Origin: Ostreococcus lucimarinus
Taxonomy: Eukaryota
Strand: one strand, 5' to 3'
Assembly: GCA_000092065.1 (NCBI GenBank)
Contig: CP000597.1
Length of the DNA: 64,000 bases
Shown piece after piece: positions 27,269 through 46,498 of the stretch. The notes below the pieces were generated by a model. That model did no database searches. It was not told the origin of the DNA and worked only from the letters and a program-made list of their open reading frames with translations. The stretch's first letter is position 1. Each line of letters opens with the position of its first letter. A program made the position numbers and the translations under genes.

Positions 27269-27790
27269 TCACGCCGCCGTCGCTTTGGCGCGCACGCGCT
27301 CGCGCCAGCCCACGAGCGCCGGACCGGGAATTTTCAACGCCTCCACGGTGTACGTCTTCTTCGATTTCGTCGACCGCTCGGAGTTTTCGCCGTCATCATT
27401 CGTTCGAACGCCGTCGTCGTCGTTTTCGTCGTCGTCGAACGAAAGACCGCGCTCGCACAACGTCGCCGCGTCCTCGTCGCGCGCGAACGTCACGAACGCG
27501 AAATCCTCTCCCTCCGGCACGTAACACCGCGTCACCTTCCCCCCGCGCACCGCTCTTTCGCACGCCTCGAGCACGTCCGACGCGTTTCTCTTACTCTCCG
27601 GCAAATCGTACGCCACGCACGGGTTCTTCAGCCGCGCGAACCGCTCCTGCCCGTCCTCCTCCATCGTCCACTCCGACTGCCACCCGTACTTCATCTGTCG
27701 ATACTCCGGCGTGTTCGGCTCGTCGATCGCGTACCCGGATCCCGCGATCTCGAAGAACGGGCCGAACGATCCCGCATCGCGTTCGCTCAT
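27269..27790 (-). CDS. Hypothetical small protein with an RRM-like segment (KVTRCYVPEGEDFAFVTFARDEDA) and an acidic tail.
   Basis: 173-aa ORF of balanced composition (W, Y, K, E, F). No R/A-rich bias. Family not recognised. Confidence 0.4.
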   Translation of the reverse strand: MSERDAGSFGPFFEIAGSGYAIDEPNTPEYRQMKYGWQSEWTMEEDGQERFARLKNPCVAYDLPESKRNASDVLEACERAVRGGKVTRCYVPEGEDFAFVTFARDEDAATLCERGLSFDDDENDDDGVRTNDDGENSERSTKSKKTYTVEALKIPGPALVGWRERVRAKATAA

Positions 27791-27892
27791 GTCGTCGCGT
27801 CGTTCTCCTCCGTCGCGCGATTCTGACGTCGCATCGATTCGATTGTTCGCTCGAAACGCTCGCGTAACGCCCGCGCGCCACCCCGGTCGAAA

Positions 27893-27925
27893 CCTAACTA
27901 TAAACTATAAACTATAAACTATAAA
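27893..27925. repeat. (CTATAAA)n microsatellite, 4-5 units.
   Basis: Sequence aactaa(ctataaa)x4 is directly visible. It is AT-rich within a GC-rich context and immediately abuts the interspersed repeat. Confidence 0.9.
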
Positions 27926-28132
27926 CTCGTCGAGTTTTCTACGTATTCACCGTGATTTAGATCTATTAGTGCCGAAATCGCGAAACCCGTTTTGTCCAGC
28001 CTGCACACTTACGCACAAACTTAGGGACTAAGAGCATCGCAATAACTTAAGTTCTCGTCGAGTTTTCTACGTATTCACCGTGATTTAGATCTATTAGTGC
28101 CGAAATCGCGAAACCCGTTTTGTCCAGCCTGC
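27926..28132 (+). repeat. Interspersed repeat family A, locus 1: 1.6 tandem copies of a ~128-bp unit (ctcgtcgagttttctacgtattcaccgtgatttagatctattagtgccgaaatcgcgaaacccgttttgtccagcctgcacacttacgcacaaactta...).
   Basis: Unit 1 is 27926..28053. Partial unit 2 is 28054..28132 and is nearly identical. The same element recurs at 41550..41772. The repeat lies between the divergent genes starting at 27790 (-) and 28202 (+). Confidence 0.9.
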
Positions 28133-28201: not shown

Positions 28202-29749
28202 ATGGCGTCTCCGACGCCGCACGCGCGCGCGCTCTGCCGCAGCGTAAACGTCCCGATCGCGCTCGACGACCGACGCGGTGCGCGCGCGATCAGACGACGC
28301 GCGACGCGCGCGAATGCGTCGACGAATGGGACGCCCGCGAGCGGGGACGCGCGCGCGAACGTCGACGACGACGACGAGAGACGACCGGGAAGCGTCGGGC
28401 GAGGGAACGACGGTGACGTGATGTTCGTGAACGGCGACGGCGCGACGCGGCGCGCGATCGGGGGCCGACGCGCGATGGAGGGACGCGCGGCGAATGGCGA
28501 CGAGGGGGAGAGGTTAAGAGACGGCGGCGCGCGCGGCGACGACGACGCGAGACGGGATTCGCGCGCGAGAGACGCGTCGTCGTCGTCGCCGGGGATGGCG
28601 AGAGGAAGTGGTGCGCGCGCGAGGTCGTCGAGCGGGGGCGCGAGCGCGATCAGAGGCGCGAACGCGGCGCGAGCGCAAACGGCGGAAATCTTGCTCACGC
28701 GAGGGTTGATTCTGAATAAGCTCGTCGTGACGCGCACGAGCGGGTCGCGATTGGGCGTGGCGACGGATTTGTGGGTGGACACCGATACGTGGGAGGTCGT
28801 GGCGTTAGATATTCGACAAAACGCGTTCGTGGGGACGGTAGACCACGTGCTGCTGGAGTCGCTGAGGCAAGTCGGGGACGTGATTTTGGTACACGACGAG
28901 CGCGCGGTGGAGCGGCGATGGAGCTCGTACGGATACAGCGCGGTGGTGGGGAAGGACGTCGTCACCGAGAGTGGGCAGTTTATCGGTCGAGTGCGGGATT
29001 TCGAATTCGATCCCGAGGACGGCGCCATCGCGAGGTTGATCGTCGACGCGTGGGGCGTGCCCACGGTGCCCGAGGGCGTGGTGTCGACGTACGCCGTGGA
29101 CGTCGTTGAGATTTTAGACTGCGGAACCGAACGCATCATCGTCGCCGAAGACGCCGAAAGTCGAGTCGAACAACTCAGCATGAGCGTTTTACAGCGCTTG
29201 GCGTTGACCGTGCCGCCGTGGGAGGAGGAAGAGATGATGTTCGGAAGCGACGCCTACTACGACGACGTCTACTACGACGACTACGGCCGCGCCGTGCCGT
29301 CGCGATCGCGCCGTCGCGCCGACGTAGACGAGTACGAAGCCTTCTTCCGACGTCGCGGCGGCGCCGCGCGCGGCGTCGAGCAGCGCCAATCGTCCGGAAG
29401 CCCCGTTCGCGAGGGCATCCCGCTGATGCGTCCGACGCAAGCGTACGAACGTCGCGACGTCGACGGCGGCTACGGCGACCGCCCCGGTTTCTCCGATTGG
29501 GTCGTCCGCGACGATCGCCGTCAATCGCGCGAGTACGAAACCGTCGACGCGTACTGGGATCCTCCCGCGAGACGCGAGCGCGCCGCCGCGCGTCGTCCGC
29601 CCGCCGACGCCCGCGACGTCCGCGACGTCCGCGCGTCGCCGCCGCCGCGCGACGCTCGCCCCCCGCCGCGTTCGCGCCGCGCGCCGCCGCCGCGTTCGCG
29701 CCGCGCGCCGCCCTCGGGCGCGTTCGACGCGTCCGAGGACATGCTCTGA
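28202..29749 (+). CDS. PRC-barrel domain protein (tandem PRC barrels), probably plastid-targeted, with a Pro/Arg-rich C-terminal tail.
   Basis: ...ILLTRGLILNKLVVTRTSGSRLGVATDLWVDTDTWEVVALDI... and ...AVVGKDVVTESGQFIGRVRDFEFDPEDGAIARLIVD... fit the PRC-barrel pattern (L.G..V....G..LG.V.D...D...G.I..L.V). The ORF track start at 28097 is a translation of the repeat (MPKSRNPFCPAC) and is not real. Confidence 0.45.
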   Translation: MASPTPHARALCRSVNVPIALDDRRGARAIRRRATRANASTNGTPASGDARANVDDDDERRPGSVGRGNDGDVMFVNGDGATRRAIGGRRAMEGRAANGDEGERLRDGGARGDDDARRDSRARDASSSSPGMARGSGARARSSSGGASAIRGANAARAQTAEILLTRGLILNKLVVTRTSGSRLGVATDLWVDTDTWEVVALDIRQNAFVGTVDHVLLESLRQVGDVILVHDERAVERRWSSYGYSAVVGKDVVTESGQFIGRVRDFEFDPEDGAIARLIVDAWGVPTVPEGVVSTYAVDVVEILDCGTERIIVAEDAESRVEQLSMSVLQRLALTVPPWEEEEMMFGSDAYYDDVYYDDYGRAVPSRSRRRADVDEYEAFFRRRGGAARGVEQRQSSGSPVREGIPLMRPTQAYERRDVDGGYGDRPGFSDWVVRDDRRQSREYETVDAYWDPPARRERAAARRPPADARDVRDVRASPPPRDARPPPRSRRAPPPRSRRAPPSGAFDASEDML

Positions 29750-31083: not shown

Positions 31084-31204
31084 ATCGCCCGCTCGCGAAC
31101 TGTAATAGTGCCACAGATTTCTGATTTCTTTCCTCTTTCACGAAATTTCTAATGTCATCGCGTGTTCGATTCGATCGCGCGTCGTTTTCGTGCGCGTTAA
31201 CGTC

Positions 31205-31606
31205 CTATTGATCATCTGCGGCCGACGCGGGCGCGGGCGTGGCGTTCGTCATGTTGTCCACTCGCGTGCGAAACGCGCCTCGTCCGATCGCAAAGCGCCG
31301 TGGCGTCCAGCGCAAGACGTTGGTATCGCCCGGAGCGTCCAAAATGTCGTCGATTCCGTTCGACGCGTCCTCGATGACGTGTCGAAGTGTGCGATGCAGC
31401 CCATCTTCGACGCTGATTTCGTCCAGAACGGCTCGTTCGGCGTCGGTCAACTTCGTCAGTCGGTCGCGCACTGCCTCGGCATGGTCTGGTTTGGTCAACA
31501 GGGCGTTCTCGCGACGGCGCCGGGCCTCGCCAGCTTCCCACGCCATGGCGAGGTCCACGGGATCGCCGTCATCGACGTAGGCATCGTAAGCGTCGGTTTG
31601 CTCCAT
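31205..31606 (-). CDS. Hypothetical small acidic protein.
   Basis: 133-aa ORF with balanced, non-R/A composition (D, E, L, T, W). The opposite-strand ORF 31190..31699 is R/G-rich junk. No recognised domain. Confidence 0.35.
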   Translation of the reverse strand: MEQTDAYDAYVDDGDPVDLAMAWEAGEARRRRENALLTKPDHAEAVRDRLTKLTDAERAVLDEISVEDGLHRTLRHVIEDASNGIDDILDAPGDTNVLRWTPRRFAIGRGAFRTRVDNMTNATPAPASAADDQ

Positions 31607-31717
31607 GTCGAGTCGATCGAGGCGTCGAGGTGTGTGGGCGCCGAGGAGGCGAGACGAGAAGGCGACAACGCGCGGCTACGTGTAGTATTCGTTGGCTAAG
31701 GTCGCCCGGGCGGGCCT

Positions 31718-36770: not shown

Positions 36771-37769
36771 TTAACATCGCATGCCTTCCTCGGTGACCGT
36801 GTACGCGCCTCCGTGGCGGCGCACCGGTACGTCCCACGTCGCTACGCCCGCGTACTCACCGTATCCAACGCGTTTGTTCGACGGCGCCAACAAGACGCGC
36901 TGCGTCACCGCGTTCGTCCACTCCACGGGTAAGAAATCCTTGTACTGCCCACCCCGTCGACCATCGTTCGACGACAACGTCGTCTTTGTCACCACAACCG
37001 CCGCCCTATGCGCGCTCGCTAGGCGCTTGAACAATCTCGCCGCGGCGGAAAACACGCGCTGAATGTTAAACGGCGCCCCGTGGTCCTTCCTCGATGCTCG
37101 ATCGAGCCAGTAAAACGCCGCCACGTTGTCACAAATCACCAACCGCTGCGACGCGAATTTCGCCATCTCACCGCTTTTGGCACCGTTCGTACCTCCACCC
37201 TCTGCGTCCTCCCCCGTCTCCCTCGTCTCCGCCGTCTCCGCGTCCACGAACAGTCCGTCTCTTTTCGCGCTCTCGATCGCTCCGCTCCACGCCGCGTCCA
37301 GCGCCGTCAGCGTCTTCAACGCGTCCACCATCCCGTGCGCCCTCACCAGCGTGAATCTCGACATCGATTCCTCGTACACCTCATCTCGCATCGTCACTCG
37401 CTGATTCTCTCGCACGTTCGCCAGCTTTTCCTCAATCTTTCGATTCAGCGCTCGCAGCAGCCGCAGTTGGTCAAACTTTCCATCGCAATCGATGACGATC
37501 ACCCGCGCCTCGCTCCCGTCGTACCGCACCCCGTCCCGCGCTCGCGGCAGCACGGCGTGCGCGGCGATCTCGGTGACGAACTCCGTCTTCCCCGACCCCG
37601 GCGCGCCGACGATCTCGACGATCTCTCCCGCGCGAAGCGCCGGTTCGGGGTCGCGCGCGTCGACGAACGGAATCCCGCTCCGCAGCGGCTCTCGCAGCGC
37701 GCGGTCGAGGTACGCGCGCGCCGTCTCGCTCGGCGCGAGGAACGCGAGCGTTTCTTCCAGCGTGTTCAT
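36771..37769 (-). CDS. RAD51 paralog (RecA/RAD51-family ATPase; XRCC2/XRCC3/RAD51C/D-like). Alternative start at 37871.
   Basis: Walker A EIVGAPGSGKTEFV. ...RVIVIDCDGKFD... . A hydrophobic Walker B-like LVICDNVAAFYW. Short protein (~330 aa) typical of RAD51 paralogs. Confidence 0.55.
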   Translation of the reverse strand: MNTLEETLAFLAPSETARAYLDRALREPLRSGIPFVDARDPEPALRAGEIVEIVGAPGSGKTEFVTEIAAHAVLPRARDGVRYDGSEARVIVIDCDGKFDQLRLLRALNRKIEEKLANVRENQRVTMRDEVYEESMSRFTLVRAHGMVDALKTLTALDAAWSGAIESAKRDGLFVDAETAETRETGEDAEGGGTNGAKSGEMAKFASQRLVICDNVAAFYWLDRASRKDHGAPFNIQRVFSAAARLFKRLASAHRAAVVVTKTTLSSNDGRRGGQYKDFLPVEWTNAVTQRVLLAPSNKRVGYGEYAGVATWDVPVRRHGGAYTVTEEGMRC

Positions 37770-37869
37770 CCGCGCGTCGCGCGCTCGCGCGACATCAACC
37801 GCGACGCGTCGACGAGTGCGACCGACTCGCGGCGTCCGCCGAACGAATCGCCATCGCGCGGCGCGCGGC

Positions 37870-40671: not shown

Positions 40672-41460
40672 TCACGCAATCAAGCGCAGGAGCTGTCCGG
40701 AGAGCTGAAACGACTTCCCAGTCTCCTCGAGGCACCGATCCTTCTCTTCGCGCGACCACGCCTCGGCGGTTTCGTTTAACAAATTTCTCACCCGAGCCAA
40801 AGATTCATCCAAGCCCCCGTTCGCGCGCCACTCGTAAAATTCCAGTTCTTTACCATCCAAAATGAGCTCGCTCACCTTGCGTCCGATCATCCGTCCCCCC
40901 GCGCTGTGCGCAAAGTAGACGTTGTAAAAGTGACAAATAAACTCGGGCGGCGACGTCGCCGCGAGCGCCTTGAGCGTCTCCGCGTACTCCTTCCCCGCCC
41001 CCGTCGCTTCCCTCGGCGCCAACCCGAATCGCTCCTCCATATACTTAATATCCTTCCTCAGCGCCTCCGAGCGCTCTAACCCACAATTATTAAACTTTCC
41101 ATACGTTTTTTCGTTTTCGTTCGCCGCCACGACGCGCTCCATCGCCTCGTACACCGCCAGCGACTCCACCAAAAAGTTCAAGTATCCCTCCGCCGTCGGC
41201 GTCCATCGCGCCACGGGCTTTTGTTCCGACTTCGTCGCGTCCGTCTTTTTCTCTCCCTCCCTCGGCGCTTGCTCCCGCGTGTGCAGCGACATCGCGACGC
41301 GTCGCATCTCTTCGACGAAGCCTTTTTGTTGTCCCATCGACGCGCCGTGTCCGTGTCCGTGCGCGCGCGCGCGCGCGTGAGACGCCCGCGCGCGCGACAG
41401 AGAGGGCGCGCGCGCGACGTGCGCGCGCGACGACGGCGCGGCGGCGCGCGCCAGCGGCAT
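40672..41460 (-). CDS. HO1: Plant-type heme oxygenase 1 (HY1/HO1-like), plastid-targeted.
   Basis: ...EGYLNFLVESLAVYEAME...EFICHFYNVYFAHSAGGRMIGRKVSELILDGKELEFYEW...LARVRNLLNETAEAWSREEKDRCLEETGKSFQLSGQLLRLI matches the plant HO1 C-terminal consensus. The ORF track start at 41547 extends 5' to the edge of repeat family A. ATG 41460 (MPLARAAAPS..., transit-peptide-like) is preferred. Confidence 0.85.
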   Translation of the reverse strand: MPLARAAAPSSRAHVARAPSLSRARASHARARAHGHGHGASMGQQKGFVEEMRRVAMSLHTREQAPREGEKKTDATKSEQKPVARWTPTAEGYLNFLVESLAVYEAMERVVAANENEKTYGKFNNCGLERSEALRKDIKYMEERFGLAPREATGAGKEYAETLKALAATSPPEFICHFYNVYFAHSAGGRMIGRKVSELILDGKELEFYEWRANGGLDESLARVRNLLNETAEAWSREEKDRCLEETGKSFQLSGQLLRLIA

Positions 41461-41549
41461 GTCGGCGCTTCTACGTGCGCGCGAGCGCGTCGGACGGTGA
41501 CGTCGAGATTCATTCGTTGGGTTTCGAGCTCTCGTCCCGTCGTGCACCC

Positions 41550-41772
41550 TGGATTGGTTCTCGTCGAGTTTTCTACGTATTTACCGTGATTTAGAGCCAT
41601 GCGTGCCGAAATCGCGATTGCGTTTTGTCCAGCCTGCACACTTACGCACAAACTTAGTGCAGGGCGACTAACAGCATCGCACATAACTTAAGTTCTCGTC
41701 GAGTTTTCTACGTATTTACCGTGCTTTAGATCTATTAGTGCCGAAATCGCGAAAACCGTTTTGTCCAGCCTG
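41550..41772 (+). repeat. Interspersed repeat family A, locus 2: 1.6 tandem copies of a ~135-bp unit (about 85-90 % identical to locus 1).
   Basis: Unit 1 is 41550..41684. Partial unit 2 is 41685..41772. It shares ctcgtcgagttttctacgtatt(c/t)accgtg...gtgccgaaatcgcga...gttttgtccagcctgcacacttacgc with 27926..28132. It lies about 90 bp upstream of the HO1 ATG and about 100 bp beyond the stop of the helicase. Confidence 0.9.
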
Positions 41773-41872
41773 CACACTTACGCGTGGGTTGACGACTCTG
41801 CTCCACGACTTCGATTACACGAGTGGAGTGAGTGCGTGCGTGACTACAGAAAAACAACGCGTGGTAAATGAA

Positions 41873-44800
41873 TTAGTTGCCGCGGCGCTGAGCGCCGCGG
41901 AAACCGCCGCCGCGATCGCCGCGATCGTAATCGGCGTCGCGACGGCGGAACTGACGCTGGCGAAACGCGTCTCGCTCGTCGAGGATGCGGAATAAACCGC
42001 CCACGGCGTCGACGATGTTTTCGCTGGCGTCCGGAAGTGGTTTGCGAGGAGCCATGACTTTGAAAGCCAGCGCGGCATCGATCTCGCGACGGACGTCGGT
42101 GAGTAGATCCATGGTATCGGCGCACTGCGAATCGATGACGATCCAGTCGTCGAGCATGGCTCGGTGAGAGGTGGTTCGCTTGTCGCCGTCATCAGACGCG
42201 CCATCGGCGTCGCTCGACGACGCGAGTTCGCCGGATTCGTTCAATAGTCCCGCTTCGGGCGCCTTCGATGCCGTGGCGGCGTCATCACCATCCAGAAAGT
42301 CTCGCTTGGAGAGCTCGTGACCGCCGAGGAGCATGAGCTGCTCGGGGCGCATCGCCGTGACGTCTCGCAAGAACACTTGCGAGCTGAGCATCATCTCTCG
42401 ATACAAGAACCATCGAGGAAGAGGCGTGCGGTCGCGCGGTGGTTTGCGATGGAAAGCTACGCTCGAGGGGTGTAATCCGGCGTGGTCCTCGGTGCGCGTT
42501 CGCAGGGTGCCAAAGTTGCCAAACTGCCGCCGAGCCGCGATGTTCCCGGGGAGTCCTGCCGCCCAAACCGCGGTGAAGAGCGATTCGTTGGCGGCGTTAT
42601 AGTTCACCGATGCATCGTATCGCAGCGTCTTCTTACTCATCGATCGCCCGTCCAAATCGTAATCTTGAACCAATCCGATACGGTTTAGCTCGTGCAAGAG
42701 CTGCGAGCGAACCGAAGTGATGGTGTTCAAAGCGGCGATGGATATGAAATTATCGCTCGCCCAACGCCGAGCGCCGTCCCAGCCTTGATCGTACTGGATA
42801 GTCTGGAACGCATCGTACGCGCGAACAGTGGCGAGTAAATCTGAAGTCGCGCAGAACGATTGTCTGATTTGCCGCGCCTCGTCTCGCATCCCCGGAGGGA
42901 CGTAAAACGGATCCCGAGAGCTGAAACACGCCGCAGCGGTGAGCACTGGATCGAGACATTTCATCACTGCTCCCATGATGAGCATCCGTCCAGTCCCAGG
43001 ATCGAGCGGGAGGATGGACAGCAATCGTCCCATGGGCGTGAGGACTTCGCCTCCAGACGCCTCGTTCGTCTTGATGGCGCCGAGTTTAAAAAGCCTATCC
43101 ATCGCATACTCCACAGTCTCGTCCGACGGAGGGTCCATGGCTTTGGACAAGAAGTGTTGTACTCCGGTGTTGGTCATCGAGCACGTCTGCAAACAAGTCG
43201 CTTCGAGCGCCGTGCGCTGGATCTCTGGCGTCGGTCGTTCCGCCATGGCGTGCAGAGTACCGTGAGAATATATTCGGTAGCACGATCCAGGGGCGACACG
43301 TCCAGCGCGACCGGTTCGTTGTGTCGCGCTTGCGCGCGACGTTCCGACCGTGCCCATCGTCGACATTCCGCTCTCGGCGTTCCAAGACATCTCTCGTACC
43401 AGACCGCTGTCCACCACGGCGAGCACGTCGTTGATGGTGACAGAAGATTCGGCAATGTTCGTCGCTAATATGACCTTCACCACGCCATCTGGCGCCGGTA
43501 TGAACACTTTTTGTTGCTCTTCTTGAGGAATCGTCGAATGAAGTGGTATAACGTTCAACTTCTCGTAAAGCTCGGGGTCGGTGGTCTCCTCCAGTATCGC
43601 CATCGCCGACTTTATCTCATCCCAACCGGGTAGGAAGCACAAGATACTACCCTTACGTCCGGCGTCGGTTTCGATAGCCGCGACGTGTTTAGCGACTTCG
43701 GCGAGGAGTTGAATCGTGAGTTCGCTCACTTCCTTCGTTTCGTTCGCGCCGAATCGCTTACCAGCTCCACTCTTGCCCATGGACGACTCGCCCGTGCGCG
43801 CGTCGCGCATAGCCACCGCTCGACGAAGAGCACGCACGCGAGACGACGCTCGCATGCGACGAGGTGACATTCCTCGATTATTTTCGACGTCTTCCAACTT
43901 CATCGCCATGTCTTCGAGCGCAGGGTCGACGTCGTCGACGTCGTCGTCGTCATCGTCGACATCGTCTTCGTCCTCAGACACTTCCACTTCCACCTGCTCG
44001 TCCTCCGCCGCCGATATGCGCTCAAGTTGCTGCGCAGCGATTTCTTCGGCTTCGGCTTCCTCGAGTTCGCGCTGCAACGCGCGATCCTGCGCCGCGAGCA
44101 AATCTTTCGCAAGCTTTTTCAATCGACTTGGGATTTCTCGCTTACGAGCGTTGAATTCCTCCTCGCTTACAAGACTTTCATCTTCGACTTCGAGCTCGCC
44201 TCCACCGTCTAGCATATCCTCGAGGTGGACGATCTCTACAGGCCATCGCGGTTTCGTCGGTACGCTCATCAAAGGTACCTTTTCCTGCGTATCTTCACCC
44301 GCAAAGTAGTCACTGAACGATTCCGCGTCGAGCGTCGCGCTCATCAAAACGACTCGCAAATCCGGTCGAGTGGTGATGAGTTCGCGGAGCAAGACGAGCA
44401 GAAAGTCGGTGTTAATGTCGCGCTCGTGAACTTCGTCGATCATAACGTGCGAGATACCTTCCAAATTTTGATCTCTCATGAGTCTGCGAAGTAAAACCCC
44501 GGTCGTGACGAATTCAATGTTCGCCGCGTCGCGCGGTGAATTACCGTGTAATCGCACGGCGAAACCCACCGAGTTCCCAATCGGTTCGTCGCGCTCCGCC
44601 GCGACGCGCTCAGCGACAGATATCGCGGCGATACGTCGTGGTTGGGTGACGATAATGCGCGTGTTCGGCCCTTCGCCTTGTTGGATGGCGTCTTCTAAGA
44701 TGTACTGCGGACACTGGGTCGATTTCCCGCTCCCCGTGCCTCCGCTCACGACGACCACTTGATGTGTTTGCAACGCTTTCACGAGATCTTCGCGAATGGC

Positions 44801-46498
44801 TTTGATGGGCAGCGCATCGCGAATTCTCTTCATCTCTGCTTGAGGGCTTTGCTCGTTCTCGACGGCTCTTCGCAATCGCTTTGCCTCTTCCTCGGCGTAT
44901 TCGCTATTCTCCGCCGCAACGCGTTCCGCCGCACGCGACTCGCGCGCAGCCTTGAGTATTTCTTCCGCTTTCGACGGTCCATCGGAGCTTTTACGCCATT
45001 TTGACTCTTGTCGCGCCGAAAACTTGGCCTCAAACTCCGCTTGTAATTCCACTAGCTCAGACATTCTACCGTCGTGTTCCTCGGGCGAACCCATGGCCTC
45101 GACGAGAATATCGATTCCTTTATCCGGTAACGCGGGCATTGACATCATTGATACGTGATTCGCAGGCGAGGCGTCGATGATTCGATTCAACTCTTCGAGC
45201 CGCCTCTCGCCGACGACAGCGGCGAGCGGTTCGCGGACCGCGTTGATTATTGCCTCGGCTTCGCTCGATGCTTTACTCGCACCTTTCCCACTTCCCTCGA
45301 GCTTCTTCCCACCATCAACGAGCATGCTAACTTCAGTGACGAAATTTCGCTGCTTTTGCGACGTCACCATGGACGGTCGCGTCGAATTCAGCATTTCCAA
45401 GAGCATCTGCGCCCTGTTCTTCTTCGCCTGTTGCGACTCCTTCGCTCGCTCCATGAGCATCTTACGCACGTCCGGTGGATCTTTGGGATTGATCCCGCAC
45501 TGCGTGAACTGTTCGTACAAATCTATCAGCGCCAGCGCCTGCGACTCTTTCTTCCCGAACGCCACCCCCGTGTTGACGAGTTCCACCGCGTCGTCCTCCA
45601 TCGCCGTCGCGTCCGCGGGCGTCGGTTGAATCGCCCCGTGCGGCACCACCGTCCTCACCGTCGTGATGAACGTCTGATCGTGCGCCGGTCCGTTCATCGT
45701 CGTCGACATTCTTTGCTTAAACAGCATTTTCATAGCCGCCTTGTGTAAAATATTCCGTACGTTCTGCCCGTCGACGCCGAGTCGCTCCTTGACGCCCTTC
45801 GCGAGTTGCCGCGTCATGATCGCTCGTCCGTTTTCCCCGTGCGTCACCACCGCCGCGGGCGGCGCTTTACTCGATCGTTTCCCTCCCCCTCTCGACTTCG
45901 TTCGCGCGTCCTCGCGTCCCTGCCGCCCCCCTCGTCCTCCCCGTCCGCCCCGTCCGCCGCGTCCTCCGCGCCCTCGTCCCCCGCCTCGCCCTCGACCGCC
46001 TCGCCCTCGACGCTCATCCCTCCCGCCGCCCTCCTCCGCGCGCGCCGCCGTCGCCGTCGCTTTCGCGCGCCCTTCCTTCGTCGCCCACGCGCCGTCGCGC
46101 GCGTTCCCGCGTCCCGGCGCGTTCGCGCGCGCGTCGCCGCTCGCGCGTCGCGTCCCGCCCGCGTCGCCGCTCGCGCGCGCGCGCGCCGTCGTCGTCGCGC
46201 GCGCCGCGGCGAATCGATCGAGCGCGTTCCGGACGCTTCTCGCGCTTCCCGCGCGCGCGACGACCGCGCACGCGCCGAGCGCGCGCCTCGGCGTCGCGCA
46301 CGCCGCCGGCGCGCGCGCGTCGACGCGCGCGCGCGCGCGCGCCGTCGCCGCGACGCGCATCGCCGCCAGCGCGCTCCGGCGCATGCGACCGCGGCGCGCT
46401 CGGGTCGACGCCGCCGGCGCGCGTCGCGCGCGTGTGCGGCGCCGAGGCGCGCGCGCGCGCGCGGCGCGCGGCCGCGCGGCGATGTCGCGTATGCGCAT
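41873..46498 (-). CDS. DEAH-box ATP-dependent RNA helicase (DHX36/DHX57-like) with an N-terminal RGG/RG-rich region. Start is uncertain.
   Basis: RGG box GGRGRGGGRGRGGRGGRGGRGGRGG. Motif I VVVVSGGTGSGKSTQ, Ia TQPRRIAAISVAERVA, II IDEVHER, III SATLD, VI QRTGRAGR. C-terminal HA2/OB region. An internal acidic insert (DEDDVDDDDDDVDDVD) is present. Confidence 0.85.
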   Translation of the reverse strand: MRIRDIAARPRAARARAPRRRTRARRAPAASTRARRGRMRRSALAAMRVAATARARARVDARAPAACATPRRALGACAVVARAGSARSVRNALDRFAAARATTTARARASGDAGGTRRASGDARANAPGRGNARDGAWATKEGRAKATATAARAEEGGGRDERRGRGGRGRGGGRGRGGRGGRGGRGGRGGRQGREDARTKSRGGGKRSSKAPPAAVVTHGENGRAIMTRQLAKGVKERLGVDGQNVRNILHKAAMKMLFKQRMSTTMNGPAHDQTFITTVRTVVPHGAIQPTPADATAMEDDAVELVNTGVAFGKKESQALALIDLYEQFTQCGINPKDPPDVRKMLMERAKESQQAKKNRAQMLLEMLNSTRPSMVTSQKQRNFVTEVSMLVDGGKKLEGSGKGASKASSEAEAIINAVREPLAAVVGERRLEELNRIIDASPANHVSMMSMPALPDKGIDILVEAMGSPEEHDGRMSELVELQAEFEAKFSARQESKWRKSSDGPSKAEEILKAARESRAAERVAAENSEYAEEEAKRLRRAVENEQSPQAEMKRIRDALPIKAIREDLVKALQTHQVVVVSGGTGSGKSTQCPQYILEDAIQQGEGPNTRIIVTQPRRIAAISVAERVAAERDEPIGNSVGFAVRLHGNSPRDAANIEFVTTGVLLRRLMRDQNLEGISHVMIDEVHERDINTDFLLVLLRELITTRPDLRVVLMSATLDAESFSDYFAGEDTQEKVPLMSVPTKPRWPVEIVHLEDMLDGGGELEVEDESLVSEEEFNARKREIPSRLKKLAKDLLAAQDRALQRELEEAEAEEIAAQQLERISAAEDEQVEVEVSEDEDDVDDDDDDVDDVDPALEDMAMKLEDVENNRGMSPRRMRASSRVRALRRAVAMRDARTGESSMGKSGAGKRFGANETKEVSELTIQLLAEVAKHVAAIETDAGRKGSILCFLPGWDEIKSAMAILEETTDPELYEKLNVIPLHSTIPQEEQQKVFIPAPDGVVKVILATNIAESSVTINDVLAVVDSGLVREMSWNAESGMSTMGTVGTSRASATQRTGRAGRVAPGSCYRIYSHGTLHAMAERPTPEIQRTALEATCLQTCSMTNTGVQHFLSKAMDPPSDETVEYAMDRLFKLGAIKTNEASGGEVLTPMGRLLSILPLDPGTGRMLIMGAVMKCLDPVLTAAACFSSRDPFYVPPGMRDEARQIRQSFCATSDLLATVRAYDAFQTIQYDQGWDGARRWASDNFISIAALNTITSVRSQLLHELNRIGLVQDYDLDGRSMSKKTLRYDASVNYNAANESLFTAVWAAGLPGNIAARRQFGNFGTLRTRTEDHAGLHPSSVAFHRKPPRDRTPLPRWFLYREMMLSSQVFLRDVTAMRPEQLMLLGGHELSKRDFLDGDDAATASKAPEAGLLNESGELASSSDADGASDDGDKRTTSHRAMLDDWIVIDSQCADTMDLLTDVRREIDAALAFKVMAPRKPLPDASENIVDAVGGLFRILDERDAFRQRQFRRRDADYDRGDRGGGFRGAQRRGN

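What the first reader, a model, noticed from the sequence alone, without database searches (positions are those of the whole stretch)
27926..28132. Interspersed ~130-bp repeat family (family A) at two loci, each as 1.6 tandem copies, in promoter-proximal intergenic DNA
An almost identical element (ctcgtcgagttttctacgtattcaccgtgatttag...gtgccgaaatcgcgaaacccgttttgtccagcctgcacacttacgcacaaactta...) occurs at 27926-28132 and again at 41550-41772. Both loci have the same architecture: a full unit plus a 5' partial unit. Both sit 70-140 bp upstream of start codons, on gene 27269-27790(-) and the PRC-barrel gene, and on HO1. Its translation (MPKSR(N/K)PFCPAC...) creates spurious ORF starts at 28097 and 41738. 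It could be a MITE/introner-like mobile element that has landed in 5' flanks, or a shared cis-regulatory module.
Basis: seen in the sequence. Interest (0 to 1): 0.7.

Follow-up and report, generated by a model that had tools for sequence, protein, structure and literature searches.

The report
Hypervariable promoter repeat family in Ostreococcus
The repeat is real, but it is not a Micromonas introner or a MITE: it is a small, lineage-specific family of length-variable tandem repeats lying between genes in the picoalga Ostreococcus lucimarinus, useful as a strain marker and probably not essential.

Summary
Nearly identical repeats lie at 27926-28132 and 41557-41783.

The real anatomy is a conserved 78-80-bp core separated by interchangeable spacers of 34-65 bp. 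The "128-bp unit" is one core plus one spacer.

The window is Ostreococcus lucimarinus, not Micromonas.

In metagenome contigs of the same loci, core number runs from 1 to 6 at locus 1. At locus 2 it runs from a 32-nt remnant to 3.

A pattern scan of JGI metagenomes found only five distinct loci, each hit 3-8 times. All are short intergenic regions next to gene starts.

Identical cores and spacers are shared between loci within a lineage. A sibling lineage only about 5.5% diverged at four-fold sites carries a different core subtype and unrelated spacers at the same loci. This indicates fast turnover and concerted evolution.

More distant Ostreococcus species keep the gene order but have no core at either locus.

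I found no Rfam match, no conserved RNA fold, no terminal inverted repeats or target-site duplications, and no viral or prokaryotic matches.

Best reading: a low-copy, dispersed complex minisatellite (VNTR) family, reshaped by unequal exchange and exchange between loci, and probably dispensable. Interest is modest.

The parts
27881..27925 (+). Left arm of locus-1 array. It is a spacer-like remnant (ccccggtcgaaacct...) that has been expanded here by an (AACTATA)4.6 microsatellite at 27896-27927.
   Evidence: TRF. Other haplotypes read 'caactctaat' instead of the microsatellite. In the sibling lineage the same 'ccggtcgaaacctcaaacctatt' precedes the first core at both loci and recurs inside a spacer.
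27926..28004 (+). Locus 1, core copy 1 (79 nt).
   Evidence: nhmmer 88.9 bits over the full model. It is 100% identical to copy 2. Both copies carry a private C at core position 23 that is seen in no other haplotype.
28005..28053 (+). Locus 1, spacer S1 (a 49-nt variant of the 57-nt S1).
28054..28132 (+). Locus 1, core copy 2 (79 nt). The array ends exactly at the end of the core.
41535..41559 (+). Locus 2, left arm. It is a variable, spacer-like remnant before the first core.
   Evidence: This stretch differs among haplotypes (for example ...ggattggtt...ggtaaaccgaccgtt...tttaccgagaattgaactcggtaaaccgtt), whereas the outer flank is constant.
41560..41637 (+). Locus 2, core copy 1 (78 nt, subtype 'agagccatgcg...gattgcg').
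   Evidence: nhmmer 82.3 bits.
41638..41694 (+). Locus 2, spacer S1 (57 nt).
   Evidence: The identical 57-mer also occurs at locus 1 in other haplotypes.
41695..41773 (+). Locus 2, core copy 2 (79 nt).
   Evidence: nhmmer 88.2 bits.
41774..41783 (+). Locus 2, first 10 nt of S1 (acacttacgc). This partial unit forms the right edge of the array.
27269..27790 (-). Flanking gene: a 173-aa protein with no Pfam hit. Its ATG lies 135 nt from the array.
28202..29749 (+). Flanking gene: a PRC-barrel protein. Its ATG lies 69 nt from the array. It forms a divergent pair with the 173-aa gene.
   Evidence: PF05239, E 4.5e-12.
40672..41460 (-). Flanking gene: heme oxygenase HO1. Its ATG lies 99 nt from the array.
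   Evidence: PF01126.
41873..46498 (-). Flanking gene: a DEAH-box helicase. Its stop codon lies 89 nt beyond the right edge of the array. The 46498 start is only the ORF limit, not a verified start codon.
   Evidence: DEAD, Helicase_C, HA2_C, OB_NTP_bind.

Best explanation
This is a young, low-copy, dispersed complex minisatellite (VNTR) family specific to the Ostreococcus lucimarinus lineage. The repeating entity is a 78-80-bp core (CTCGTCGAGTTTTCTACGYATTTA ... GATTTAG ... TCGCGA ... CGTTTTGTCCAGCCTGC). Its two ends are invariant in the copies recovered and its middle is variable. Cores are separated by interchangeable spacers of 34-65 bp.

Short arrays of 1-6 cores occupy a handful of short intergenic regions next to gene starts.

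Shown: arrays differ in core number and in spacer order between individuals. Identical cores and spacers are shared among paralogous loci within a lineage, while orthologous loci of a very close sibling lineage carry another subtype. More distant species lack the element at both loci studied. One natural haplotype has lost nearly all of the locus-2 array.

Inferred: arrays expand and contract by unequal exchange or replication slippage. They are homogenised or replaced by ectopic gene conversion between loci. The original seeding of new loci was a non-transposase event, such as capture of array fragments at breaks in open promoter DNA.

The element forms part of the promoter or 5' region of its neighbours and so can alter spacing. 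It is probably not required for their expression.
For: Tandem structure and copy-number variation:
- At locus 1 the intergenic length runs from 264 to 885 bp, with 1, 2, 3 or 6 cores in ten contigs.
- At locus 2 it runs from 173 to 516 bp, with a 32-nt remnant or 1, 2 or 3 cores.
- Spacer types S1 (49-57 nt) and S2 (34-36 nt) are interspersed in different orders, and there is a hybrid 86-nt spacer.
- Both cores of the window's locus 1 share a private base, which points to a very recent in-situ duplication or conversion.

Low copy number:
- The metagenome scan returned 27 contigs that fall into 5 loci, each seen 3-8 times with no singletons.
- The window holds only 4 cores.

Concerted evolution and turnover:
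- The commonest 79-mer core occurs 9 times at locus 1 and 6 times at locus 2.
- Identical S1 and S2 spacers are shared by loci 1, 2 and E.
- An identical sibling-type core is shared by loci 1 and 2 of the sibling lineage.
- The two lineages differ at 2.5-7.5% of four-fold sites in six flanking genes. Their cores differ at 15 of 79 positions, all within core positions 19-62, and their spacers are unrelated.

Lineage-specific gain:
- Ostreococcus species at about 75-78% coding identity keep helicase-HO1 and small-gene/PRC synteny, with intergenic regions of about 160 bp and 134-143 bp.
- None of them gives a core hit at nhmmer E<=10.

Dispensability:
- Four independent contigs (L015, L019, L049, L050) carry the same deletion, which removes the array and 51 nt of unique HO1-proximal flank.

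Not an RNA gene and not a transposon:
- No Rfam hit.
- Folding z-scores range from -1.0 to +1.0.
- Consensus fold energies are -4.3 and -3.3 kcal/mol with 1 and 0 compensated pairs.
- There are only internal palindromes, no terminal inverted repeats.
- Array edges fall at different phases of the unit.
Against: - The two ends of the core are identical in every subtype recovered. Internal blocks (TTTAG, TCGCGA) are invariant while the rest of the middle differs by up to about 40%. That pattern suggests constraint, either on host function or on the element's own propagation. However, 28 of the end positions were fixed by my search pattern, so only about 13 of them are an unbiased observation.
- All five loci touch at least one gene start. 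At locus E the array fills almost the whole space between two ATGs (14 nt and about 40 nt from its edges), so promoters must overlap it.
- Copy-number differences come from metagenome assemblies. Units of 114-136 bp can be collapsed by short-read assemblers. The 1-, 2-, 3- and 6-core alleles do occur on contigs of 43-350 kb whose naming suggests long-read assembly, but I could not verify the sequencing technology.
- How new loci were seeded was not observed.
- Loci C, D and E are assigned to these genomes only by sharing of repeat variants and by co-occurrence in the same metagenomes.
Confidence: 0.6

Rival explanations
1. A shared cis-regulatory module. On this reading the core is a platform of transcription-factor sites: the palindromes CTCGTCGAG, TACGTA, TAGATCTA and TCGCGA, and the inverted pair GCGATTT...AAATCGC. 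It would be duplicated in tandem to tune bidirectional promoters, and kept by selection.
For: - Every locus abuts a start codon, and four of five appear to be divergent gene pairs.
- At locus E the array is essentially the whole intergenic region.
- The core has invariant blocks separated by fast-evolving sequence.
- It holds several palindromes of the kind dimeric factors bind.
Against: - The element is absent from both orthologous promoters in other Ostreococcus species, although gene order is conserved there.
- A deletion haplotype lacking the array and adjacent upstream DNA is present in four independent samples.
- Core number varies 1-6 with no preferred value.
- The 17-18-nt invariant blocks occur nowhere else in the window's roughly 30 other intergenic regions, even with 3 mismatches.
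- The flanking genes have no evident common function: HO1, PRC-barrel, Mpv17/PMP22, an RBM39-like protein and unknowns.
- In a genome this compact, almost any tolerated intergenic insertion lies near a start codon, so the promoter location is weak evidence (inference).
Confidence: 0.2
2. A non-autonomous mobile element (MITE-, Helitron- or introner-like) of about 100-115 bp that targets promoter DNA and then amplifies locally into short tandem arrays.
For: - The family is dispersed over at least five loci.
- The arrays are insertions relative to other Ostreococcus species.
- The right edge is nearly constant (end of core plus 0-10 nt) while the left edge is ragged. This recalls elements with one fixed end.
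- On the minus strand, S1 plus a core reads GTAAGT...AG.
Against: - There are no terminal inverted repeats and no target-site duplication at any locus.
- There are only about five loci, with no singletons in the scan.
- The copies are not inside genes.
- S2-type units lack the GTAAGT motif.
- No copy was seen with coding capacity or a poly-A or simple-repeat tail.
- Sharing of identical cores and spacers among loci that predate the lineage split fits gene conversion better than repeated transposition into the same sites.
Confidence: 0.12
3. A tandem cluster of small non-coding RNA genes (for example snoRNA-like or pol III transcripts), one per core.
For: - The arrays are low-GC islands in a 64% GC genome.
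- Tandem intergenic arrangement is typical of plant snoRNA clusters (general knowledge).
- O. tauri has over 100 medium-sized ncRNAs, some of them intergenic (bioRxiv 10.64898/2026.07.10.737489).
- The core contains T-runs.
Against: - No Rfam match, even at E<=10, and no tRNA-like fold.
- The core folds no better than shuffled sequence on either strand.
- There is almost no covariation.
- Reading the sequence shows no C/D boxes (RUGAUGA/CUGA) in proper positions.
- Copy number is not conserved, and the element is absent in sister species.
Confidence: 0.03

Closest known systems
Promoter minisatellites / VNTRs (for example unstable tandem repeats in yeast promoters, the human INS VNTR)
   Same: Head-to-tail units of tens of base pairs in 5' regulatory DNA. 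Copy number differs between individuals. Variant units are interspersed within arrays. Change occurs by unequal exchange or slippage.
   Different: Here the same unit family occupies several unlinked or loosely linked promoters and is homogenised among them. The unit is composite: a conserved core plus swappable spacers.
Dispersed euchromatic satellite blocks (for example Drosophila 1.688 g/cm3 satellite arrays of 1-5 units near genes)
   Same: Short arrays of one repeat family scattered at many gene-proximal sites. There is rapid turnover between close species and evidence of exchange between loci. There are no transposon termini.
   Different: The copy number of loci is far smaller, about five. 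No heterochromatic parent array is known. The comparison rests on my own knowledge of that literature and was not tested here.
Micromonas introner elements
   Same: A lineage-specific repeated element in a Mamiellophyceae genome, with near-identical copies and presence/absence differences between close lineages.
   Different: Introner elements sit inside transcription units in sense orientation, are spliced out, and number hundreds or more (PMC4540971). This family is intergenic, tandem and low-copy, and it is in Ostreococcus.
Promoter length polymorphisms used as strain markers in Bathycoccus prasinos (the yrdC and TOC1 promoter INDELs)
   Same: Multi-allelic length variation of a few hundred bp in promoter regions of a Mamiellophyceae alga, detectable directly in environmental DNA (PMC11539686).
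   Different: That paper does not describe a shared repeat family across loci. The sequence basis of those INDELs was not compared here.
MITEs
   Same: Short, non-coding, interspersed and gene-proximal.
   Different: No terminal inverted repeats, no target-site duplication, no high copy number, and ragged array edges.

Membership tests
Minisatellite / VNTR | Head-to-tail tandem units of roughly 10-150 bp | tested here: met
   The period is 113-136 bp (a 78-80-bp core plus a 34-57-bp spacer) at both window loci and in the related contigs.
Minisatellite / VNTR | Copy number polymorphic among individuals of one species | tested here: met
   1, 2, 3 or 6 cores at locus 1. A remnant or 1, 2 or 3 cores at locus 2. 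These contigs have flanks 98-99.9% identical to the window. Caveat: the alleles come from metagenome assemblies.
Minisatellite / VNTR | Interspersion of variant units within arrays | tested here: met
   38 distinct core sequences and about 20 spacer variants occur in different orders (the strict pattern gave 36 distinct cores).
Micromonas introner element | Lies inside a transcription unit, in sense orientation, and is removed by splicing | tested here: not met
   The arrays lie between start codons of divergent genes, or between a start codon and the neighbour's stop codon. Splicing itself could not be tested because no RNA data were available.
Micromonas introner element | Hundreds or more near-identical copies per genome | tested here: not met
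   27 matching contigs collapse to five loci, each seen 3-8 times. The 64-kb window holds four cores.
Micromonas introner element | Conserved 5' splice site, branch point and 3' splice site in every copy | tested here: not met
   GTAAGT...AG is seen only on the minus strand of S1-bearing units. S2-, S4- and S5-bearing units lack it.
MITE | Terminal inverted repeats | tested here: not met
   The only inverted matches are internal palindromes paired between successive copies.
MITE | Target-site duplication flanking each insertion | tested here: not met
   The flanks of the five loci share no direct repeat. Left edges start at different positions within the spacer, and right edges lie 0-10 nt past the core.
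Structured non-coding RNA gene (snoRNA, tRNA-derived or other Rfam family) | A match to a known family, or a conserved secondary structure with covariation | tested here: not met
   Rfam gave nothing at the gathering threshold or at E<=10. ARAGORN found nothing at the loci. Folding z-scores range from -1.0 to +1.0. Alifold gave -4.3 and -3.3 kcal/mol, with at most 1 compensated pair.
Conserved cis-regulatory module | Retained at orthologous promoters of related species | tested here: not met
   The core is present in the sibling lineage, but as a different subtype. It is absent from both loci in species of four or more contig sets at about 75-78% coding identity.
CRISPR-like repeat-spacer array (architecture only) | Unique spacers derived from foreign DNA between identical repeats | tested here: not met
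   The few spacer types are shared between loci. Exact-match scans of IMG/VR with the core and with three spacers found nothing. The core is absent from bacterial and archaeal genomes.

The most novel reading that the evidence does not exclude
The arrays may be more than passive minisatellites. They could be preferred recombination or integration sites through which whole genes are gained and lost, acting as cassette-like boundaries.

Two observations point this way. At locus C, two independent contigs carry a 1.0-kb low-GC segment encoding an EGF-like membrane protein. It sits inside a spacer between two cores and is bounded by a 20-bp direct repeat of spacer sequence. At locus 2 of the sibling lineage, a 414-aa Cys-loop-channel-like gene lies immediately beside the array and is absent from the window.

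A related reading is that the core is a portable bidirectional promoter copied between loci.
Probability: 0.1. Interest if true: 0.6.

Novelty: new member of a known kind. Interest (0 to 1): 0.3.

Why it matters
Ostreococcus genomes are among the most compact of free-living eukaryotes, so repeats that persist in their tiny intergenic regions are rare.

This family offers three things:
- ready-made, multi-allelic length markers for tracking O. lucimarinus genotypes directly in metagenomes or by PCR;
- a clear natural example of concerted evolution between short arrays at different promoters, on a timescale shorter than about 5% synonymous divergence;
- a natural series of promoter alleles (0.4 to 6 cores) upstream of HO1 and a PRC-barrel gene, which could be used to test whether promoter repeat number tunes expression in a picoalga.

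It also corrects the taxonomic assumption and removes this element from the list of candidate introners.

Tried and rejected
1. Rfam at gathering and E<=10 thresholds, ARAGORN, single-sequence folding and alignment folding on both strands gave no RNA gene.

2. A CRISPR-like or viral origin of the spacers. The core and three spacers have no exact match in IMG/VR, and the core has none in GTDB genomes.

3. Surveying the family through spurious ORFs. I translated the core and searched the 5.8-billion-protein database. A doubled 52-aa profile returned only two weak hits, with E about 1. This was not informative.

4. Looking up genes of loci C and E, to learn whether they lie on the window's chromosome.

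5. Origin of the core from the native locus-1 promoter. An apparent resemblance (TCGAGTT..TTTTATAC) in an O. mediterraneus-like contig scores no better than shuffled sequence: 504 and 591 of 1000 shuffles reach the observed score.

6. A telomere-box reading of the invariant TTTAG. The two following bases vary freely among subtypes, so there is no conserved TTTAGGG.

7. The window-wide repeat finder was swamped by CG-rich low-complexity matches and was replaced by blastn and nhmmer.

8. Literature searches for an Ostreococcus or Mamiellophyceae repeat of this kind found no description.

9. The gene-sized indels next to arrays are not clearly special. Another small gene (window 31183-31711) is missing from the sibling lineage with no array nearby.

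Full report
**Observation.** The two regions were read directly and compared with the whole window by blastn.
- 27926-28132 matches 41560-41773 at 89.8% over 215 columns (E 4e-79).
- Within locus 1, 27926-28004 and 28054-28132 are identical over 79 nt.
- Within locus 2, 41557-41647 and 41692-41783 are 90% identical.
- A profile built from all recovered cores finds exactly four copies in the 64 kb and nothing else above noise.
- The 17-18-nt end blocks occur only there, even with three mismatches; shuffles give 0.12-0.19 expected matches.

The reported distances to start codons are correct.
- Locus 1 lies between the divergent starts of a 173-aa gene (ATG 27790, minus strand) and a PRC-barrel gene (ATG 28202).
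- Locus 2 lies between the HO1 start (41460, minus strand) and the stop codon of a DEAH helicase gene (41873).

**Organism.** Exact look-ups show that the window's HO1 and NmrA-like proteins contain the annotated Ostreococcus lucimarinus CCE9901 proteins XP_001422256.1 and XP_001422150.1 without a mismatch. The window is therefore O. lucimarinus or a conspecific, not Micromonas. The 173-aa protein is indexed in 1091 blocks of public assemblies, so this genome is heavily sampled in marine metagenomes. That made population comparison possible.

**True anatomy.** Ten contigs carrying locus 1 and nine carrying locus 2 were fetched by exact protein look-up, and their intergenic regions were laid out. 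The constant entity is a 78-80-nt core: ctcgtcgagttttctacgtatttaccgtgatttagatctattagtgccgaaatcgcgaaaaccgttttgtccagcctgc. Cores are separated by one of a few spacers.
- S1 is 49-57 nt (acacttacgcacaaactta...aacttaagtt).
- S2 is 34-36 nt (tgaaccccgatttctaaacccgttgttaacccatt).
- There is one hybrid 86-nt spacer.

Every array starts with a partial spacer-like arm and ends with a core followed by 0-10 nt of spacer.

**Copy-number variation.**
- At locus 1 the ATG-to-ATG distance is 264, 284, 378, 412, 492, 513, 534 or 885 bp, corresponding to 1, 2, 3 or 6 cores.
- At locus 2 it is 173 to 516 bp, corresponding to a 32-nt core remnant or 1, 2 or 3 cores.
- The remnant allele also lacks 51 nt of unique HO1-proximal flank. 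It is found with the same junction in four independent contigs: L015, L019, L049 and L050.
- Both cores of the window's locus 1 share a private base seen nowhere else, which indicates a very recent duplication or conversion.

Caveat: these are metagenome assemblies. The different alleles do occur on contigs of 43-350 kb, but I could not verify the sequencing platform.

**Family size and context.** One scan of JGI metagenomes used the pattern CTCGTCGAGTTTT-N44-58-TTTTGTCCAGCCTGC and returned 27 contigs. Flank comparison sorts them into five loci.
- Locus 1 and locus 2.
- Locus C, between a 47-aa ORF and an Mpv17/PMP22 gene.
- Locus D, upstream of a roughly 1000-aa gene.
- Locus E, between an RBM39-like RRM gene and a 173-aa gene.

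Each locus was hit 3-8 times and none only once, so few pattern-matching loci are likely to have been missed. More diverged copies would escape this exact-match scan. All five loci touch a gene start, and four appear to be divergent pairs. At locus E the array leaves only 14 nt and about 40 nt to the two ATGs. In a genome with intergenic regions of 130-400 bp, closeness to a start codon is nearly unavoidable for any tolerated insertion. I treat the promoter location as weak evidence (inference).

**Evolutionary behaviour.** Some contigs (L025, L029, L034, L045) come from a sibling lineage. Its flanking genes differ from the window at only 2.5-7.5% of four-fold degenerate sites. Its arrays sit at the orthologous positions but differ in two ways.
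- They use a different core subtype, with 15 of 79 positions different, all within core positions 19-62.
- They use unrelated spacers of 47 and 65 nt.

Within each lineage, by contrast, paralogous loci share identical cores and identical spacers.
- The commonest 79-mer occurs 9 times at locus 1 and 6 times at locus 2.
- S1 and S2 are shared by loci 1, 2 and E.
- The sibling-type core is shared by that lineage's loci 1 and 2.

This is the signature of concerted evolution: exchange between loci and replacement within arrays that runs faster than point substitution.

More distant Ostreococcus species (coding identity about 75-78%) retain the helicase-HO1 and small-gene/PRC-barrel arrangements. 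Their intergenic regions are about 160 bp and 134-143 bp, and none gives a core match at nhmmer E<=10. The arrays are therefore lineage-specific insertions, not ancient promoter elements.

**What it is not.**
- Not an RNA gene. There is no Rfam hit at the gathering threshold or at E<=10 and no tRNA-like fold at the loci. Folding energies are indistinguishable from shuffles on both strands (z from -1.0 to +1.0). Consensus folds of 14 diverse units give -4.3 and -3.3 kcal/mol, with one and zero compensated pairs.
- Not a classical transposon. Inverted-repeat search finds only the internal palindromes (CTCGTCGAG, TAGATCTA, TCGCGA) paired between successive copies. No flank shows a target-site duplication, and left edges begin at different phases of the unit.
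- Not of viral or prokaryotic origin by exact-match scans. Neither the core nor three spacers match IMG/VR contigs, and the core is absent from GTDB genomes.
- Not an introner element. The defining introner features are residence inside a transcription unit in sense orientation, splicing, and hundreds of copies (PMC4540971). None is met. The minus strand of S1 plus a core does read GTAAGT...AG, but units with other spacers lack it. A spliced 5'-UTR intron cannot be formally excluded without RNA data.

**Mechanism.**

Shown:
- tandem structure;
- allelic copy-number and spacer-order variation;
- sharing of identical variants among loci;
- subtype replacement between very close lineages;
- absence in more distant species;
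- a naturally occurring near-complete deletion.

Inferred:
- expansion and contraction by unequal exchange or replication slippage. This is consistent with the AACTATA and (AT)n microsatellites that grow at the same junction;
- homogenisation by ectopic gene conversion;
- seeding of new loci by a process without fixed termini.

The invariant core ends, and the internal TTTAG and TCGCGA blocks against a fast-changing middle, hint at some constraint. Twenty-eight of those end positions were imposed by my search pattern, so the unbiased evidence is thin. A regulatory role stays a live rival at about 0.2. It is disfavoured by absence in sister species, by the deletion allele and by unconstrained copy number.

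**Side observations bearing on a bolder reading.**
- At locus C, two independent contigs (L043, L038) carry a 1.0-kb low-GC segment inside a spacer. It encodes an EGF-like, Ser/Thr-rich membrane protein and is bounded by a 20-bp direct repeat of spacer sequence.
- A 92-97% identical paralogous gene lies at a PFK-linked locus without cores.
- In the sibling lineage, a 414-aa Cys-loop-channel-like gene lies directly beside the locus-2 array and is absent from the window.

These suggest that arrays might be recombination hot spots. However, another small gene (window 31183-31711) is missing from the sibling lineage with no array nearby. Gene-sized indels are therefore common here, and the association may be coincidental.

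**Verdict.** It is wrong on organism and class: this is not a Micromonas element, an introner or a MITE. The feature is a new member of a known kind, namely a low-copy, dispersed, hypervariable complex minisatellite family with inter-locus concerted evolution in O. lucimarinus. Literature searches found no prior description. The nearest practical parallel is the promoter INDEL markers of Bathycoccus (PMC11539686). Interest is modest (0.3). Its main value is as a population marker and as a natural allelic series for testing promoter-repeat effects.

Noticed in passing
window 27896-27927: An (AACTATA)4.6 microsatellite abuts the first core. Other O. lucimarinus haplotypes read 'caactctaat' here. 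Locus C haplotypes have (AT)n runs at the equivalent junction. The base just 5' of the first core therefore seems prone to slippage.
   Followed up: partly
L043 250-1300 and L038 8060-8355 (locus C): A 1.0-kb low-GC insertion lies inside a spacer between two cores. It encodes a 242-aa EGF-like, Ser/Thr-rich membrane protein and is flanked by the 20-bp direct repeat ATTTCTTAAACCCTTTTCAT. A 92-97% identical paralog lies next to a PFK gene (L066, L067) with no cores nearby.
   Followed up: partly
L025 250-1744 (sibling lineage, locus 2): A 1.5-kb segment lies between the array and the helicase 3' end and is absent from the window. It carries a 414-aa gene that looks like a Cys-loop ligand-gated channel by eye; this was not tested against Pfam.
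   Followed up: no
L024 600-760; L025 1600-1720: There is another short repeated motif near the arrays: gg(g/a)tccg(c/t)t(t/a)tag..gg and tttagtgggacgaatcaga, several copies about 20-80 bp apart. It may be a second repeat family.
   Followed up: no
window 31183-31711: A small minus-strand ORF here is missing from the sibling-lineage contig L045. This is a roughly 530-bp presence/absence difference that is not associated with any core.
   Followed up: partly
window 37692-37784: ARAGORN calls a 93-nt tRNA-Arg(TCG) in very GC-rich DNA, but the Rfam gathering scan of the window reports no tRNA. It is probably a false positive, or an intron-bearing gene.
   Followed up: no
L051 294-4975: This contig is a perfect palindrome carrying two head-to-head HO1 copies joined inside the HO1 5' region. 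It is most likely an assembly artefact.
   Followed up: no
L008 (locus 1, 6-core allele), first spacer: The 86-nt spacer consists of S1 truncated after 42 nt, then the last 9 nt of a core, then S2. It is an internal deletion product and shows that the arrays are also remodelled by small deletions.
   Followed up: yes
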